Assembly (NCBI RefSeq): GCF_902713425.1
Contig: NC_081212.1
Span: forward strand, 10,100,261-10,164,260
Direction of reading: 5' to 3'
DNA: 64,000 bases
Origin: Acipenser ruthenus
Lineage: Eukaryota
Part shown: one piece after another, positions 873 through 43,380 of the stretch
How the letters are laid out: every line of letters begins with the position of its first letter
How positions within the stretch are numbered: the stretch's first letter is position 1
Notes under the pieces: generated by a model
The model's input: the letters and a program-made list of their open reading frames with translations, nothing else
What the model was told of the DNA's origin: nothing
Database searches by the model: none
Made by a program: the position numbers and the translations under genes

Positions 873-1133
873 GTGGAATATTGATAGTTAGTCCCCTGGG
901 TTTTAGTTACGTTTTATTCCAGTTGAGTTATTGTAACATGATCCCTGGTACAGCTCCAATAGCTGAAGGGGTCATGGGTCATGGGGAACCACGTCCTGCA
1001 CAGATTCTAGTTCCAGCCCAGGCCAGCGTGAGCACCTTCTTGTACAGAAAAAATAAAGGAACACTTAATTAGAATAAGTGTACGCGTGCCGTTTCTCTGA
1101 GTCAATAATTAGAAAGTTATTGAGTTTATCACA
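873..1133 (+). repeat. 5' LTR (261 bp) of copy 1
   Basis: Begins TGTGGAATATTG, ends TTTATCACA. AATAAA at 1052..1057. Matches 5245..5506 with 3 substitutions. Confidence 0.85.
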
Positions 1134-1135
1134 TT

Positions 1136-1147
1136 TGGCGACGAGGA
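1136..1147 (+). promoter_or_regulatory. Primer binding site (tRNA-Ser(GCU) 3'-end complement), copy 1
   Basis: TGGCGACGAGGA lies 2 nt after the LTR end. It is the reverse complement of ...CCTCGTCGCCA, the 3' end of vertebrate tRNA-Ser-GCT as I recall it (11-12 nt match). Confidence 0.5.
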
Positions 1148-1245
1148 GTAAAAAAAAAAAATAAAAAAAAAATAATATAAAAAAAAAACAAAAAAACAAA
1201 AAAACACCTAGAAGCAGGCTACACTTCGGACGGCAATGGCGACTT

Positions 1246-4200
1246 TTGGAAGCATTGGAGAGTTTGATGAGAGCACTGACTGGACGGCTTGGACACTACT
1301 TCGCAGCAAATGATATTACTGATGGAGGTAAACAGCGCTCTATATTTCTAAGTGTCTGCTGTCCGAAAACGTACAGTCTCATCAGGAATCTGGTATCGCC
1401 ATTGAAACCTACTGATAAGAGTTTTGCTGAACTGTGCTTAATTGTTAAACAGCATAAAAACCCTAAACCGTCAGAGATTGTGCAGACTTTTAAATTTCAC
1501 AATAGGTTTCGGCAACCAGGGGAATCTGTGCCAACTTATGTAGCCGAATTGAGACGGTTGTCTGAACATTGTGTTTTCGGGGCGATGCTGGATAGGATGC
1601 TGCGTGACAGGTTGGTATGCGGCTTGCAAGATGACCGCATTCAGCTCCGTTTGTTATCGGAAACCGCGTTGGATTTTAAGAAGGCTGTGGAGATTGCTCA
1701 AGCCATGGAGGCTGCTGCGCAACAAGCTCACGATCTTAAACCGACCGCCTCAACACCACCTGTGATTCACAAGGCGATCGCAGTTGGTTCTCCTGCGATA
1801 GACTGCAGACAGGGTGAAGGGAAAAATATGTGTTACCGCTGTGGACAGCCACATGCTGCAAGAGACTGTAGATTCAAGGACGCTGTTTGCCATAACTACA
1901 ATAAGAAGGGTCACATTGCAAAAGTGTGTCGCAGTAAAAATCAGCCATGCCAACAAAGAGGGGGCTGGCAACCCAAGATGCCTAAAGCTACGCATAGCTT
2001 AGAAGGGGAGGTAGATGAAGACGAACCTGAGGTTGTTTACAGTATGCACCAAGCAAAAACAGAGAAAGTAGAGCCTATTTATGTGACTGTGAAGGCGCAA
2101 GGGGAAGAATTGCAAATGGAAGTTGATACAGGGGCGTCATTCACAGTTATCAGTGAGAGCACGTACAGAGGCACGTGGCATGGCAAACAGTTACCCCCAC
2201 TCAGTAAGTCTGCCATCAAGCTGCACACGTATACAGGAGAAGAAATTAAAGTCATAGGCATCATTGCAGTGGAAGTGCAGTATAACCAGCAATCATGCAT
2301 GCTACCAATACTGATAGTGTTTGGTAATGGACCTAGTTTGCTAGGACGGAACTGGCTGAAGAAGCTCAAGCTGGATTGGTCTAACTTGTATCATATGGGA
2401 ACTACTAGTGTGCAAGACATTTTAAACAGATATGCAGTTGTGTTTCGGGATGAACTGGGAACTTTGAGAGGAACTAAGGCTGTCATTGAAGTGGACGGAA
2501 ACGTTAAGCCCAGATTCTTCAAAGCCCGTACAGTACCGTATGCATTAAAAGAAAAAGTCAGTGCTGAACTGCAGAGATTGCAAAAGGCAGGCATCATTGA
2601 ACCTGTTCAGTTTTCGAAGTGGGCTGCTCCTATTGTGCCAATTATGAAGCCAGATGGGTCAATACGTATTTGTGGCGATTATAAACTGACAGTGAACCAG
2701 GCCTCCAGACTGGATGCTTATCCAATTCCGCGAGTGGAAGATTTATTCTCCAACATTACAGGGGGGCAAGCCTTTACAAAGCTGGACCTGAGCCATGCCT
2801 ACCAGCAGCTGCTCCTGGAGGACAGTTCTAAGGAAGTTTTGACCATCAACACGCACAAGGGGTTGTTCCGCTACACCAGGTTGCCTTTTGGGGTGTCATC
2901 AGCTCCAGGTATTTTCCAACGCACCCTGGAAAGCCTGCTAGCAGGTTTGCCCCACGTTCTCGTGTATCTGGATGACATCCTCATAACAGGTCCTGACCCG
3001 TCAAAACACATGCAAGTTTTGGAAGAAGTTTTGAAGCGGCTTGCTGATGCAGGATTGAGACTAAAAAAACAAAAGTGCATTTTCCTAGTGCCAGAGGTGC
3101 AGTATTTAGGTCACAAGATTGACGCAGAGGGCATACACCCAGCAGAGGAGAAGGTCCGGGCAATAGTGGAAGCTCCGACGCCCAAGAATACCACAGAGTT
3201 GAAGTCATTTTTAGGGATGGTAAACTATTACCATCGTTTTCTGCCAAATTTATCAACGCTGTTGTCACCATTGCATCATCTACTACAGAAGAAGGTGCCA
3301 TGGTGTTGGAAACCACAGCAGGAGAAAGCTTTCCAGTCAGCAAAGAAGCTTTTGCTAACATCACAATTGTTAGTACATTTCGACTCCAAGAAACCATTGC
3401 TCCTGGCATGCGATGCATCACCCTATGGAGTGGGAGCAGTGTTATCGCACACCCTGCCTGATGGAAGTGAAAGACCAATAAGTTTTGCGTCCCGCACTTT
3501 GGCTCCAGCTGAAAAAAACTATTCTCAGCTGGATAAAGAAGCCCTCGCCATTGTGTTTGGGGTAAAAAAGTTCCATCAGTACCTGTATGGACACCATTTC
3601 ACTATTTGCTCGGACCACAAGCCCTTGATGAGCCTTTTCAGCGAGAGCAAGTTGATTCCACCGATGGCTTCAGGGAGAATTCAACGGTGGCCGTTATTGC
3701 TTGCTGGTTATGAGTATGAGATACGCTACAAGAGTGGAGAGACACACAGTAATGCTGATGGACTGAGTCGTTTGCCACTGAAGGATACACCCTCACATGT
3801 GCAAACACCAGGGGATGTGGTTTTGTTACTGGAAAACCTCTCCACTTTCCCTGTCAACCTAGGGCAAATACAGTCAGGAACCAGAAGAGACCCTATATTG
3901 TCGCGAGTCCTGACATACGTGAGAAGTGGATGGCCAGCAGAAGCCGAGATGGAAGATCTGAGGCCGTATTTTAGAAGGAAGGAGGAGTTAAGTATCCAAG
4001 ACAATTGTTTACTTTGGGGAAACAGAGTCATTGTACCTCCGCAAAGCCAGGAGAAAGTTATTGCTGAACTTCATGAAGCACACCCGGGCATATCTCGCAT
4101 GAAGAGCCTAGCAAGAAGTATGGTGTGGTGGCCTTGCATGGACCAAGCCTTGGAGAAAAAGGTTAGAGAATGTACCATTTGCCAGAGCACACGCCATGCA

Positions 4201-5164
4201 CCGCCACCGGCACCGCTACACCCGTGGGAGTGGCCTGACAGACCGTGGGCCCGTCTGCATGTGGATTATGCAGGTCCATTTATGGGGAAGATGTTCTTGA
4301 TCCTTATTGATGCCCACTCCAAGTGGATAGATGTTCATGTTATGTCTTCTGCTACTTCTCAAGCTACCATAAGTCAACTGCGGGTTACATTTGCAACGCA
4401 TGGGCTGCCCGAGATGCTAGTGACAGATAATGGAACAGCATTTACTAGCGAAGAGTTCCAGCAGTTTTGTAAGAAAAATAGCATTAAGCATGTCAGAACA
4501 TCACCTTACCACCCTGCATTCAATGGGCTAGCCGAAAGAGCCGTGCAGACGGTAAAGGAGGGGTTAAAGAAAATGAGGACTGGCACAATTGACCAAGTTG
4601 GCCAGGTTTTTGTTCCATTACAGAATCACACCTCAAACCACAACTGGGTCATCGCCGGCAGAATTACTGATGGGACGTAGACCACGATCGTGTTTTGATG
4701 TGCTGAGACCAGCAGTGGGAGGGAGAGTGAGAGCTGCGCAAGCTAAGCAGAAGTTTCAACATGATCAACACGCCAAAGTTCGCTTATTGAATGTAGGAGA
4801 TACTGTTTATGTTCGAATGTTTGGAGTGGAGGATAAGTGGACACAAGGAACCATACTGGAGAAAGTGGGTCCAGTGTCATTCCAAGTGGAACTGACAGAT
4901 GGGAGAGTGATTCGCCGTCATCAAGACCACCTAAGGAAATATCAGGCAGCGACCGTTCCACAATCTGAAAGACCAGAGGATGTCCAAGTTCCTTTGGGAG
5001 ATGACTACAGCCCTAACCCAGTGCAGTTAGAGTTTTCAACAGAGGGGGTTCCAGTAGACCCAGAGCCAGCAGTAGATCCAGGGCCAGAACCAACATTAGC
5101 CCCGGCACCAGAGTTGCGCCGTTCACAAAGAGCGCGTAGAGCTCCACAGAAACTGGACTGTTAG
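1246..5164 (+). pseudogene. gag-pol polyprotein of copy 1, disrupted by a 2-bp deletion/frameshift at ~4592
   Basis: ORF 1246..4680 (1144 aa) carries the zinc knuckle CYRCGQPHAARDC (1831..1869), protease VDTGAS (2122..2139), RT YLDD (2965..2976), RNase H and integrase HHCC/DDE. The integrase C-terminus continues in another frame (4589..5164). The intact copy reads ATTGAAACCAAG where this copy has ATTGACCAAG. Confidence 0.8.
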
Positions 5165-42053: not shown

Positions 42054-42126
42054 TCCCATATGATCTAGTGGTTACGATTCCCGTTTTTTCACCCAGGTGA
42101 CCAGGGTTCAACTCCCTGTATGCGAA
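42054..42126 (+). pseudogene. tRNA-Glu(TTC)-like relic
   Basis: As 7718 copy. Confidence 0.55.
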
Positions 42127-42515
42127 TTCATTTATTTACTTGTGGAGGTAATTGTCAGATAAAAGGATTGAAAAATGAAACCCCACATTGTAGGATGGGG
42201 AGACTTATAACTAGTGACCATTATATAAAAAAAATAAATAACGTTTGCTTATGTTAGATGCAAGAGAGCGAGACAGATAGATTTGCATCTTGGTATCCCA
42301 TCACTCCTATGTGCACCAAAGCAATGACGGTCTACACTTCAGTTCATATATAATCGGAATAAAAAAGTGGACTCTGTTGCATTGTGAGGCTGCAGTGTCG
42401 ATAACATAAACCTCTACGTTTGAGGGATCATTTAACTGTACTGTATTATATCCAAAATGGGTAATCGGCACTGTATGCTTAGAGCGCAACACACGGATCG
42501 TTTAATAAGCAACAT

Positions 42516-42588
42516 GTTTCCATAGTGTAGTGGTTATCACGTTCGCCTCACACGCGAAAGGTCCCCGGTTCGAAACCGGGTGGAAACA
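42516..42588 (+). tRNA. tRNA-Val(CAC)
   Basis: Canonical sequence, in a 1.25-kb variant unit. Confidence 0.9.
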
Positions 42589-43307
42589 CAGCACGGCATC
42601 TTTTTTTCACTGTATGTATTTATTCTCCCCAGGTAAACAGCCACCCAGACCAGAACGATGTATTTGTAGTGTGCATGGTGCATTGTCAATGCAAGTCTGA
42701 CTGTATATTAAACGGAGTGAGAATGCACTCTGCAACGTTTTGGCTTCGACTGCTGCTTGACTCACAGAAACGACAATGTTGATACTCTGACTCTTCTTCT
42801 TAAAATGCATGTTAAAATGCGGAATGTTTTCAAATTCCATGAATTCGCAGGTCTGTACAGAACAAGACGACTATCTGGTCTCACAAAATGTTGCTGGTTC
42901 TCGTAGAACAAAGAAGAGTTTGATCAACTATGTCATTCATGCCGACAAAGCTCAGGAGGGCGATCGTTAGGTTGAATATCTAAATTTCCCGGGTTATATC
43001 CCGAGTTTCGACAGATGTCAGTTTATTCATATACCTACAGAATCACAGGTACAAATATTGCAGTTAAAGTTTATGCTTTTCAAATCCGTGCACGAAAGGG
43101 GGTGCCCAAATCAGAATGAAAGTCACGGGGGGAGTAATCAAAACATCGCAAAAGAAAAATACACTGCATTAAACAAATCATTTGGAGCGGTCTAAAATGA
43201 GCAATCCAGGTTCGATTCATTGTTTTGCCCTTTCGATGGCAGCAGTGTAAAAAAATGACCTGCACATTTCTCTGCTGGCTTCGGGTAGCAAACAAGAAGC
43301 AGCGATT

Positions 43308-43380
43308 TCCCATATGATCTAGTGGTTACGATTCCCGTTTTTTCACCCAGGTGACCAGGGTTCAACTCCCTGTATGCGAA
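43308..43380 (+). pseudogene. tRNA-Glu(TTC)-like relic
   Basis: As 7718 copy. Confidence 0.55.

What the first reader, a model, noticed from the sequence alone, without database searches (positions are those of the whole stretch)
873..43313. A >=12-kb block containing the retrotransposon is duplicated at a ~30.63-kb offset, with later mosaic divergence
Both retroelement copies share the same 3' junction (LTR...ATCACA|TTATCCCATCACTCC). They share the same 3'-flanking unit variant, with MLPPTAKTFDLPVGKLLLY...YII...QFNRVHY at 5521 and 36150. They are followed at the same spacing by a DFYSD-variant unit and a pair of 1.25-kb units. The 5'-versus-3' LTR differences (3 substitutions) are shared by both copies. 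So there was one insertion, then divergence of its two LTRs, and only later a duplication of the whole block. Some corresponding units differ, for example Val-CAC canonical at 37558 but variant at 6926, and KMHF versus NMHF ORF variants. That indicates subsequent gene conversion or unequal exchange between array units.
Basis: seen in the sequence. Interest (0 to 1): 0.6.

Follow-up and report, generated by a model that had tools for sequence, protein, structure and literature searches.

The report
Retrotransposon-marked duplication inside sturgeon snRNA/tRNA array
A single old retrotransposon insertion in a sturgeon array of small-RNA genes was later copied about 30.6 kb downstream with roughly 6.4 kb of flanking array, which is an ordinary, well-understood kind of rearrangement.

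Summary
The window is a tandem array of ~2.45-kb units. Each unit carries U4 snRNA, U7 snRNA, tRNA-Val-AAC and tRNA-Val-CAC. The source is sterlet sturgeon: the copy-B ORF is 100% identical to an Acipenser ruthenus protein.

Copy A (872-5506) is a complete Ty3/gypsy element with two LTRs and a target-site duplication. Copy B starts at LTR position 145 (31643). It is joined out of register to a short array unit through a 2-bp GC microhomology.

The two copies differ at only 2 sites in 4,493 bp, whereas copy A's own LTRs differ at 3 of 264. They share the 3' junction, four private flank SNPs and a gag frameshift. So there was one insertion, followed by a much younger DNA-level duplication.

A-to-B kinship can be shown for only ~10.9 kb (A 1016 to ~11,900; B 31643 to ~42,550). 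It ends inside a 1.25-kb unit, in an interval that contains tRNA-Val-CAC. The rest of the 15.5-kb BLAST match is just ambient array identity.

The "mosaic divergence" is mainly one patch: A 6606-8114 is base-for-base identical to 29313-30821. That points to gene conversion.

This is a known kind of event and of low interest.

The parts
1..866 (+). Partial array unit upstream of copy A (unit columns ~1581-2463). It carries many private variants.
   Evidence: Private variants include 6-bp deletions and a 4-bp insertion. Unit 30667 shares none of them.
867..871 (.). 5' target-site duplication of copy A (CTATC). The empty site in the other 24 units reads GTATC|CCATCAC.
872..1133 (+). Copy A 5' LTR, complete (TG...CA, 262 bp). 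BLAST identity to the 3' LTR runs to 1135.
   Evidence: There are 3 substitutions versus the 3' LTR, at LTR positions 117, 121 and 153.
1246..5164 (+). Copy A gag-pol. It is split into 1246-4680 and 4589-5164 by a 2-bp deletion after 4591 (GA--CC versus GAAACC in copy B).
   Evidence: Restoring the 2 bp gives a protein identical to copy B's.
5245..5506 (+). Copy A 3' LTR, preceded by a polypurine tract GAGGTGGAGGGA.
5507..5511 (.). 3' target-site duplication of copy A (TTATC).
5512..6605 (+). Head of unit A1. It is still the counterpart of B1 (36141-37234): 1 difference, and 4 private shared SNPs at unit columns 68, 70, 83 and 108.
6606..8114 (+). Conversion patch in A1, covering both tRNA-Val genes. 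It is exactly identical over 1,509 bp to 29313-30821 and differs from B1 at 14 events.
7960..10411 (+). Unit A2, counterpart of B2 (38593-41044). It differs by 3 events, against at least 11 to any other unit.
10412..12917 (+). Two 1,253-bp S units (A3, A4), identical to each other and to B3. S units lack U4, U7 and tRNA-Val-AAC.
29313..30821 (+). Tail of unit A12 plus the start of unit 30667. This is the probable donor of the patch in A1.
30667..31642 (+). S-type unit that is cut off at S-unit position 976-978 by the duplication junction.
31643..31644 (.). Duplication junction: a GC dinucleotide shared by the array sequence (...TTTCTCTGC|TGGC) and the LTR (...TTCCAGC|CCAGG, LTR positions 145-146).
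31643..31760 (+). Copy B 5' LTR, truncated. Only LTR positions 145-262 are present.
31873..35793 (+). Copy B gag-pol, one open frame of 1,306 codons (first ATG at 31894). Domain order is PR-RT-RNaseH-INT.
   Evidence: From the ATG it is 100% identical to XP_058855246.1 of Acipenser ruthenus.
35874..36135 (+). Copy B 3' LTR, identical to copy A's 3' LTR. It is followed by TTATC (36136-36140).
36141..42505 (+). B-side copy of the flank: B1, B2, B3 and the first 208 bp of B4.
42506..42599 (+). Interval that contains the right-hand, in-register edge of the A-like block. It encloses tRNA-Val-CAC (42516-42589). To its right the sequence is the homogeneous downstream array type.
   Evidence: S-unit positions 207-208 are A4-like; 303, 351, 821 and 831 are not. 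(42506-44296 is exactly identical to 54773-56563 and 57227-59017).

Best explanation
A Ty3/gypsy LTR retrotransposon integrated once into a tandem array of U4/U7/tRNA-Val units in a sturgeon genome, producing copy A with a target-site duplication. After its two LTRs had diverged by about 1%, a DNA-level rearrangement placed a second copy 30.6 kb downstream in direct orientation.

The left end of the new copy is an illegitimate join. A 1.25-kb array unit, cut at position ~978, is fused to LTR position 145 through a 2-bp GC microhomology. That is typical of end joining or template switching. The right end is an in-register homologous switch inside another 1.25-kb unit.

The most economical description is a net gain of 11,631 bp. 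That figure is the in-register offset between units 30667 and 42298. Two routes give this same product and cannot be told apart here:
(i) a 30.6-kb tandem duplication by illegitimate sister-chromatid exchange, followed by a ~19-kb deletion through unequal homologous recombination;
(ii) a single replicative event with two template switches.

Afterwards the array kept homogenising. A patch of about 1.3-1.5 kb in unit A1 was overwritten from unit A12, copy A picked up a 2-bp frameshift, and a few point changes accumulated.

Shown directly: the anatomy, the junctions, the divergence ratios and the patch identity. Inferred: the molecular pathway, the direction of conversion and the 11.6-kb net size.
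For: - Copy A is complete, with TSD CTATC/TTATC against an empty site GTATC in the other units.
- Copy B begins at LTR position 145, out of register with the array, with a GC overlap.
- The elements differ by 1 substitution and one 2-bp indel in 4,493 bp. The LTRs differ at 3 of 264. Fisher p = 0.0006-0.0016.
- The 3' LTRs are identical, and LTR site 153 is C in both 5' LTRs and T in both 3' LTRs.
- Both copies share a gag frameshift relative to intact family members.
- Four SNPs are private to units 5512 and 36141. A2 versus B2 is 3 events against at least 11 to any other unit, and A3 = A4 = B3.
- B4 is A4-like up to S-unit position 208 and of the downstream type from position 303.
- B4 is identical to unit 30667 over S-unit positions 209-978.
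- A 6606-8114 is exactly identical to 29313-30821, while units 2 and 3 on the far side of the patch keep their A-B correspondence. This marks a non-crossover patch.
- A documented precedent exists: a 22.7-kb adjacent duplication in maize CEN10 that starts in a retrotransposon CDS and ends in an LTR, with a 5-nt junction microhomology (PMC4806543).
Against: - A 2-bp microhomology is weak evidence for any specific pathway, since chance overlap is common.
- B4's tail is also identical to several ordinary downstream 2.45-kb units for 1.8 kb. The partner of the right-hand switch therefore need not have been unit 30667's original self, and the 11.6-kb net size is not proven.
- Units 5-13 on the two sides show no kinship, so the original extent of the duplication cannot be recovered.
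- The direction of conversion (A12 to A1) rests only on parsimony.
- No reads were available to validate the assembly at 31643.
- Only this window could be examined. The chromosome context could not be fetched.
Confidence: 0.85

Rival explanations
1. Both copies were first made complete by ordinary in-register unequal crossing-over between array units. A later ~430-bp deletion then removed the end of the upstream unit, the 5' TSD and LTR positions 1-144 from copy B.
For: Unequal homologous exchange is the default way arrays change, and the window shows much of it. A deletion with 2-bp microhomology would leave the same junction.
Against: This route needs two events where one suffices. The unit left of copy B (30667) shares none of the 4 private variants that the unit left of copy A carries in the overlapping columns 1581-2180. 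Later conversion could have erased them, however.
Confidence: 0.1
2. Two independent integrations of the same element family occurred at the same site of two different array units.
For: Some Ty3/gypsy elements show target preference. The family has other ~98.7% identical copies in the sterlet genome.
Against: Copy B lacks 144 bp of its 5' LTR and has no 5' target site. The copies share four private flank SNPs and the downstream L-L-S-S unit order. They also share the 5'-versus-3' LTR difference at position 153 and an identical 3' LTR, a gag frameshift, and all 17 amino-acid differences from P0001.
Confidence: 0.01
3. The duplication is an assembly artefact: a repeat array wrongly expanded, or two haplotypes stitched in series.
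For: Arrays 99.5% identical are hard to assemble. The copies differ by only 2 events in 4.5 kb, a level compatible with allelic difference or consensus error.
Against: The window has no gaps or N bases. The junction joins unrelated sequences with only 2 bp in common, which an overlap-based assembler does not create. The flanks differ in structured, block-wise ways rather than randomly. NCBI's annotation of the same 30.28-Mb sterlet sequence holds two long-ORF copies (P0122, identical to copy B, and P0121, 1 aa different), neither of which is the frameshifted copy A.
Confidence: 0.04

Closest known systems
Adjacent segmental duplications inside retrotransposon-bearing tandem arrays, e.g. the 22.7-kb duplication in maize centromere 10 (PMC4806543)
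   Same: Copies lie in direct orientation within a repeat array. A breakpoint falls inside an LTR retrotransposon. The novel junction carries a few nucleotides of microhomology. The duplication is dated from copy divergence relative to LTR divergence.
   Different: The host array here consists of functional-looking small-RNA genes in a fish, not a plant centromeric satellite. The junction microhomology is 2 nt rather than 5. The copies are now separated by ~19 kb of array, and the distal edge is a homologous in-register switch.
Co-amplification of tandem repeats with embedded transposable elements (rye subtelomeric heterochromatin, PMC4857426)
   Same: A transposable element trapped in an array is multiplied at the DNA level along with array units. 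Microhomology-mediated pathways are invoked.
   Different: Here there are only two copies in view, plus an inferred third. There is no evidence of large-scale amplification.
Concerted evolution (gene conversion and unequal crossing-over) in tandem multigene families such as rDNA, 5S, snRNA and tRNA arrays
   Same: Units share block-wise haplotypes, with long exact matches between non-adjacent units. Deletion variants are present in several copies. One flank of the array is homogeneous.
   Different: Nothing differs in kind. The retrotransposon simply provides a unique marker that lets single events be ordered.
Ty3/gypsy (Metaviridae) LTR retrotransposons of fishes, annotated by NCBI as 'K02A2.6-like'
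   Same: The element has 262-bp TG...CA LTRs, a TGG-initiated primer-binding-site-like sequence 2 nt after the LTR, a polypurine tract, a single gag-pol frame, and the domain order PR-RT-RNaseH-INT.
   Different: Both copies here are defective. They carry a gag 5' frameshift and a Cys-to-Tyr change in the second zinc knuckle. Copy A has an additional integrase frameshift, and copy B lacks the promoter-bearing part of its 5' LTR.

Membership tests
Ty3/gypsy LTR retrotransposon | Direct long terminal repeats ending TG...CA | tested here: met
   In copy A, 872-1133 and 5245-5506 match at 261/264 across the BLAST span. Copy B has only LTR positions 145-262 at its 5' end.
Ty3/gypsy LTR retrotransposon | Target-site duplication of 4-6 bp flanking the element | tested here: met
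   CTATC and TTATC flank copy A (4 of 5 match). The empty site is GTATC|CCATCAC in the other 24 units. Copy B has the 3' copy only.
Ty3/gypsy LTR retrotransposon | Pol domain order protease - RT - RNase H - integrase | tested here: met
   Pfam hits: RVP 280-376, RVT_1 466-625, RT_RNaseH 688-822, Integrase_H2C2 930-984, rve 1015-1090.
Ty3/gypsy LTR retrotransposon | Primer-binding site complementary to a host tRNA 3' end, and a polypurine tract | tested here: inconclusive
   TGGCGACGAGGAG lies 2 nt after the 5' LTR, and GAGGTGGAGGGA lies directly before the 3' LTR. The cognate tRNA was not identified with a tool.
Microhomology-joined segmental duplication (end joining or template switching) | One novel junction between non-homologous sequences, with 0 to a few bp of shared bases | tested here: met
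   S-unit position ~978 is joined to LTR position 145 with a GC overlap at 31643-31644.
Microhomology-joined segmental duplication (end joining or template switching) | Copies in direct orientation that share unique markers on the copied side | tested here: met
Microhomology-joined segmental duplication (end joining or template switching) | Junction present in real DNA molecules (read support) | not testable with these tools
   No reads and no second assembly were accessible.
In-register unequal homologous crossing-over between array units | The duplication junction preserves the repeat register | tested here: not met
   The left junction is out of register and lies inside the LTR. Only the right-hand edge (42506-42599) is in register.
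Independent retrotransposition | Each copy has two complete LTRs, its own TSD and unrelated flanks | tested here: not met
Non-crossover gene conversion patch | A tract identical to a non-allelic donor, with the original correspondence retained on both sides | tested here: met
   A 6606-8114 is exactly identical to 29313-30821. The A1 head still matches B1, and A2 still matches B2. The right end of the tract cannot be placed more precisely than 7897-8114.
Tandem small-RNA gene array (snRNA/tRNA) | Head-to-tail units each containing recognisable small-RNA genes | tested here: met
   There are 21 U4 hits, 21 U7 hits and 41 tRNA-Val genes at a ~2,453-bp period. Expression was not tested.

The most novel reading that the evidence does not exclude
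The retrotransposon-bearing block may not be a one-off duplicate. It could be the seed of a higher-order repeat that is being amplified within the sterlet U4/U7/tRNA-Val array. A third near-identical long-ORF copy (P0121, 1 aa different, on the same 30.28-Mb sequence) exists outside the window. If all extra copies carry the same truncated-LTR junction, the array would be a natural, datable record of stepwise higher-order-repeat formation in a vertebrate small-RNA gene cluster.
Probability: 0.3. Interest if true: 0.35.

Novelty: new member of a known kind. Interest (0 to 1): 0.2.

Why it matters
The retrotransposon is a unique tag in an otherwise near-identical array. It allows single events to be ordered and roughly dated: insertion, illegitimate duplication, homologous exchange, a conversion patch and a frameshift. 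This gives a clean worked example of how vertebrate small-RNA gene arrays turn over.

It also offers a practical check on assembly quality in a difficult region of the sterlet genome. It does not reveal a new mechanism or a new kind of element.

Tried and rejected
- Tandem Repeats Finder found nothing because its period limit is 500 bp. I defined units instead with the anchor CCATCACTCCTATGTGCACC.
- A global MAFFT alignment of block A against block B slipped by one 1.25-kb unit. Only its unambiguous parts were used, and the unit-by-unit alignment replaced it.
- Fetching genomic context failed three times. P0001, the window ORF and P0121 were all 'not on record'. The third copy and the sequence beyond position 64000 therefore could not be examined.
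- I tested whether the duplication is a simple 30.6-kb tandem repeat. Both sides have 12 units after the element, but the types differ (A: L L S S L D L D L L L L S; B: L L S S then only L). Position 62270 is not in the required phase, and no second junction occurs in the window.
- I considered a one-break repair model, with the right end invading unit A4 and copying leftwards. I rejected it because B4 carries non-A4 alleles at S-unit positions 303-831, which such synthesis would have overwritten.
- I considered a crossover rather than a patch to explain A1 tail = A12 tail. I rejected it because what follows differs in type (2.45-kb unit after A1, 1.25-kb unit after A12).
- Literature searches found no description of this sturgeon array.

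
Full report
**What the window is.** All 64 kb is a eukaryotic tandem array.
- ARAGORN finds 41 tRNA-Val genes.
- Rfam finds 21 U4 snRNA and 21 U7 snRNA genes plus weaker tRNA-like hits, all at a period of ~2,453 bp.
- Using the 20-mer CCATCACTCCTATGTGCACC as unit start, units fall into three types:
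  - L, ~2,450 bp.
  - S, 1,253 bp, with unit columns 122-1324 deleted. S units lack U4, U7 and tRNA-Val-AAC.
  - D, 1,523 bp, with columns 1130-2063 deleted. D units lack both tRNA-Val genes.
- Any two L units differ by 12.9 events on average, range 1-26. That is ~99.5% identity.

**Source organism.** The long ORF of the second retroelement copy, read from its first ATG, is 100% identical over 1,299 aa to XP_058855246.1 of Acipenser ruthenus (sterlet).

**The retroelement.**
- Copy A spans 872-5506. Its 262-bp TG...CA LTRs match at 261 of 264 positions over the BLAST span, differing at LTR positions 117, 121 and 153.
- A TGG-initiated primer-binding-site-like sequence lies 2 nt after the 5' LTR, and a polypurine tract lies before the 3' LTR.
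- The flanks are CTATC and TTATC. The uninterrupted site in the other 24 units reads GTATC|CCATCAC.
- The polyprotein has the order protease, RT, RNase H, integrase. It groups with fish 'K02A2.6-like' Ty3/gypsy proteins.
- Other sterlet copies are ~98.7% identical.
- Both window copies share a frameshift near the gag start (MATFGSIGEFDESTDWT then out of frame) and a Cys-to-Tyr change in the second zinc knuckle.

**Checking the observation.**
- Self-BLAST gives 1016-16494 = 31643-47131 at 99.66%.
- The shared 3' junction is confirmed.
- The ORF fingerprints (QFNRVHY only at 5598 and 36227; DFYSD, KMHF and NMHF as stated) and the L-L-S-S unit order after each copy are confirmed.

One claim is wrong as stated. 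Copy B does not have a complete 5' LTR:
- Only 31643-31762 matches an LTR.
- Position 31643 corresponds to LTR position 145.
- So only one of the three 5'-versus-3' LTR differences can be compared. It is shared: C in both 5' LTRs and T in both 3' LTRs.
- The two 3' LTRs are identical over 264 of 264 positions.

**The left junction.**
- Upstream of 31643 is an S-type unit (30667) that runs normally to S-unit position ~978 and then continues directly into the LTR.
- The array reads ...TTTCTCTGC|TGGC and the LTR reads ...TTCCAGC|CCAGG, so the dinucleotide GC is common to both.
- The junction is out of register with the array and internal to the LTR, so in-register unequal crossing-over did not make it.
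- A two-step alternative is a homologous duplication followed by a ~430-bp deletion. It is possible but gains no support: unit 30667 carries none of the private variants of the unit upstream of copy A.

**Relative age.**
- Between 1016-5508 and 31643-36137 there are two differences: A/T at 1159/31786, and a 2-bp indel (GA--CC versus GAAACC) after 4591.
- The indel splits copy A's ORF (1246-4680 and 4589-5164). Copy B keeps one frame of 1,306 codons.
- With the 2 bp restored, the two proteins are identical.
- Copy divergence of 1-2 events in 4,493 bp, against 3 in 264 between the LTRs, gives Fisher p = 0.0006-0.0016.
- If the LTRs were identical at integration, which is the standard assumption, the duplication falls in roughly the last few percent of the element's residence time.

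**How far the duplicated block can be shown to extend.** Because every unit resembles every other, I used variant patterns.

| Segment | A versus B | Comparison with other units |
|---|---|---|
| Unit 1, columns 1-400 | 0 differences; 4 SNPs private to this pair | 4-7 events to any other unit |
| Unit 1, columns 400-1140 | 1 difference | not discriminating (1-2 events to several other units) |
| Unit 1, columns 1140-2463 | 14 differences | no kinship |
| Unit 2 | 3 events | at least 11 to any other unit |
| Unit 3 | identical | A3 = A4 = B3 |
| Unit 4, S-unit positions 1-208 | B4 matches A4 | - |
| Unit 4, S-unit positions 303, 351, 821, 831, 1006 | B4 has the downstream-array alleles | - |
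| Unit 5 | 15 events | no better than random pairs |

- From 42506 onward, B4 is exactly identical for 1,791 bp to 54773-56563 and to 57227-59017.
- B4 is also identical to unit 30667 over S-unit positions 209-978.
- The specific A-to-B relationship therefore covers ~10.9 kb: A 1016 to 11,872-11,966, and B 31643 to 42,505-42,599.
- It ends in an interval that encloses tRNA-Val-CAC (42516-42589).
- The remainder of the 15.5-kb BLAST match is ambient array identity. It ends only where a D-type deletion begins in A.

**The 'mosaic divergence'.**
- A1's distal part is not merely different from B1. A 6606-8114 is base-for-base identical to 29313-30821, which is the tail of unit A12 plus the start of the next unit.
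- Units 2 and 3 beyond this patch keep their A-to-B correspondence.
- That is the signature of a non-crossover conversion patch of about 1.3-1.5 kb covering both tRNA-Val genes.
- It explains why Val-CAC is a variant at 6926 but canonical at 37558.
- Parsimony favours A12 as donor. One event then explains both A1 differing from B1 and A1 equalling A12. The direction is an inference.

**Mechanism.**
- Shown: one illegitimate left junction and one in-register right-hand switch.
- Inferred: the simplest net change is a gain of 11,631 bp, the in-register offset between units 30667 and 42298.
- Route (i): an illegitimate sister-chromatid exchange creates a 30.6-kb tandem duplication, followed by an unequal homologous deletion of ~19 kb.
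- Route (ii): a single replicative event with a microhomology-mediated backward template switch and a homology-guided return.
- A single-break repair that copies leftwards from A4 does not fit, because B4 keeps non-A4 alleles at S-unit positions 303-831.
- B4's tail also matches ordinary downstream L units, so the right-hand partner cannot be pinned down.

**Further copies.**
- P0121 (XP_058855147.1) lies on the same 30.28-Mb sterlet sequence and differs from copy B by one residue (L1255I).
- It matches neither copy A nor copy B at that residue.
- A third, near-identical long-ORF copy therefore probably exists outside the window.
- Its context could not be retrieved.

**Comparison with known cases.**
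- The closest precedent is the 22.7-kb adjacent segmental duplication in maize centromere 10. It begins in a retrotransposon CDS and ends in an LTR, with a 5-nt junction microhomology, and was attributed to alternative end joining (PMC4806543).
- Co-amplification of arrays with embedded transposable elements is described in rye (PMC4857426).
- Block-wise homogenisation of tandem gene families is textbook concerted evolution.
- I found no paper describing this sturgeon array.

**Verdict.** The key anatomical fact, a breakpoint inside the 5' LTR, was missed, and the extent of the block was slightly overstated. It is a new example of a known kind of rearrangement and of low general interest (0.2).

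Noticed in passing
window 43552-46005 (one representative unit); whole window: Each ~2,453-bp unit links U4 snRNA (+), U7 snRNA (-), tRNA-Val-AAC (-) and tRNA-Val-CAC (+). It also holds a degenerate tRNA-Glu/Lys-like pseudogene with an 8-nt anticodon loop (unit positions 2210-2284) and a second weak tRNA-like hit on the minus strand. I found no published description of this linked array in sturgeon.
   Followed up: partly
window 15369-16891 and 19341-20863: Two 1,523-bp D units are identical to each other. They lack both tRNA-Val genes and carry a variant U4 (108.7 versus 117.1 bits). They occur only on the A side and alternate with full units at a 3,974-bp period.
   Followed up: partly
window 1-871: The unit upstream of copy A is much more divergent than any other, with two 6-bp deletions, a 4-bp insertion and several private substitutions. 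This may mean the window starts near the edge of the array, where homogenisation is weaker.
   Followed up: no
window 46006-64000: The downstream units are very homogeneous (1-4 events between several pairs). They contain exact matches of 1.5-1.8 kb between non-adjacent units, which suggests a recent local expansion of one unit type.
   Followed up: partly
window 14136-14207, 52131-52202, 54584-54655: Three tRNA-Val-AAC copies are 72 nt long instead of 73 and score ~49 bits instead of 65. They are likely pseudogenes, and two of them sit in adjacent units.
   Followed up: no
window 1236-1290 and 31863-31917: Both element copies share a frameshift just after the native gag start codon relative to intact sterlet family members. 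They also share a Cys-to-Tyr change in the second zinc knuckle. The element was therefore probably already non-autonomous before it was duplicated.
   Followed up: yes
window 5509-5739 and 36138-36368: The element sits about 230 bp upstream of the U4 snRNA gene of the next unit, so it separates that U4 copy from whatever lies further upstream in a normal unit. The effect on U4 expression is unknown.
   Followed up: no
window 6970-8964 versus 22326-24320: A second long exact match of 1,995 bp links the A1 tail and A2 head to the tail of unit 20864 and the head of unit 23316. It shows that block-wise sharing among A-side units goes beyond the single patch discussed in the report.
   Followed up: no
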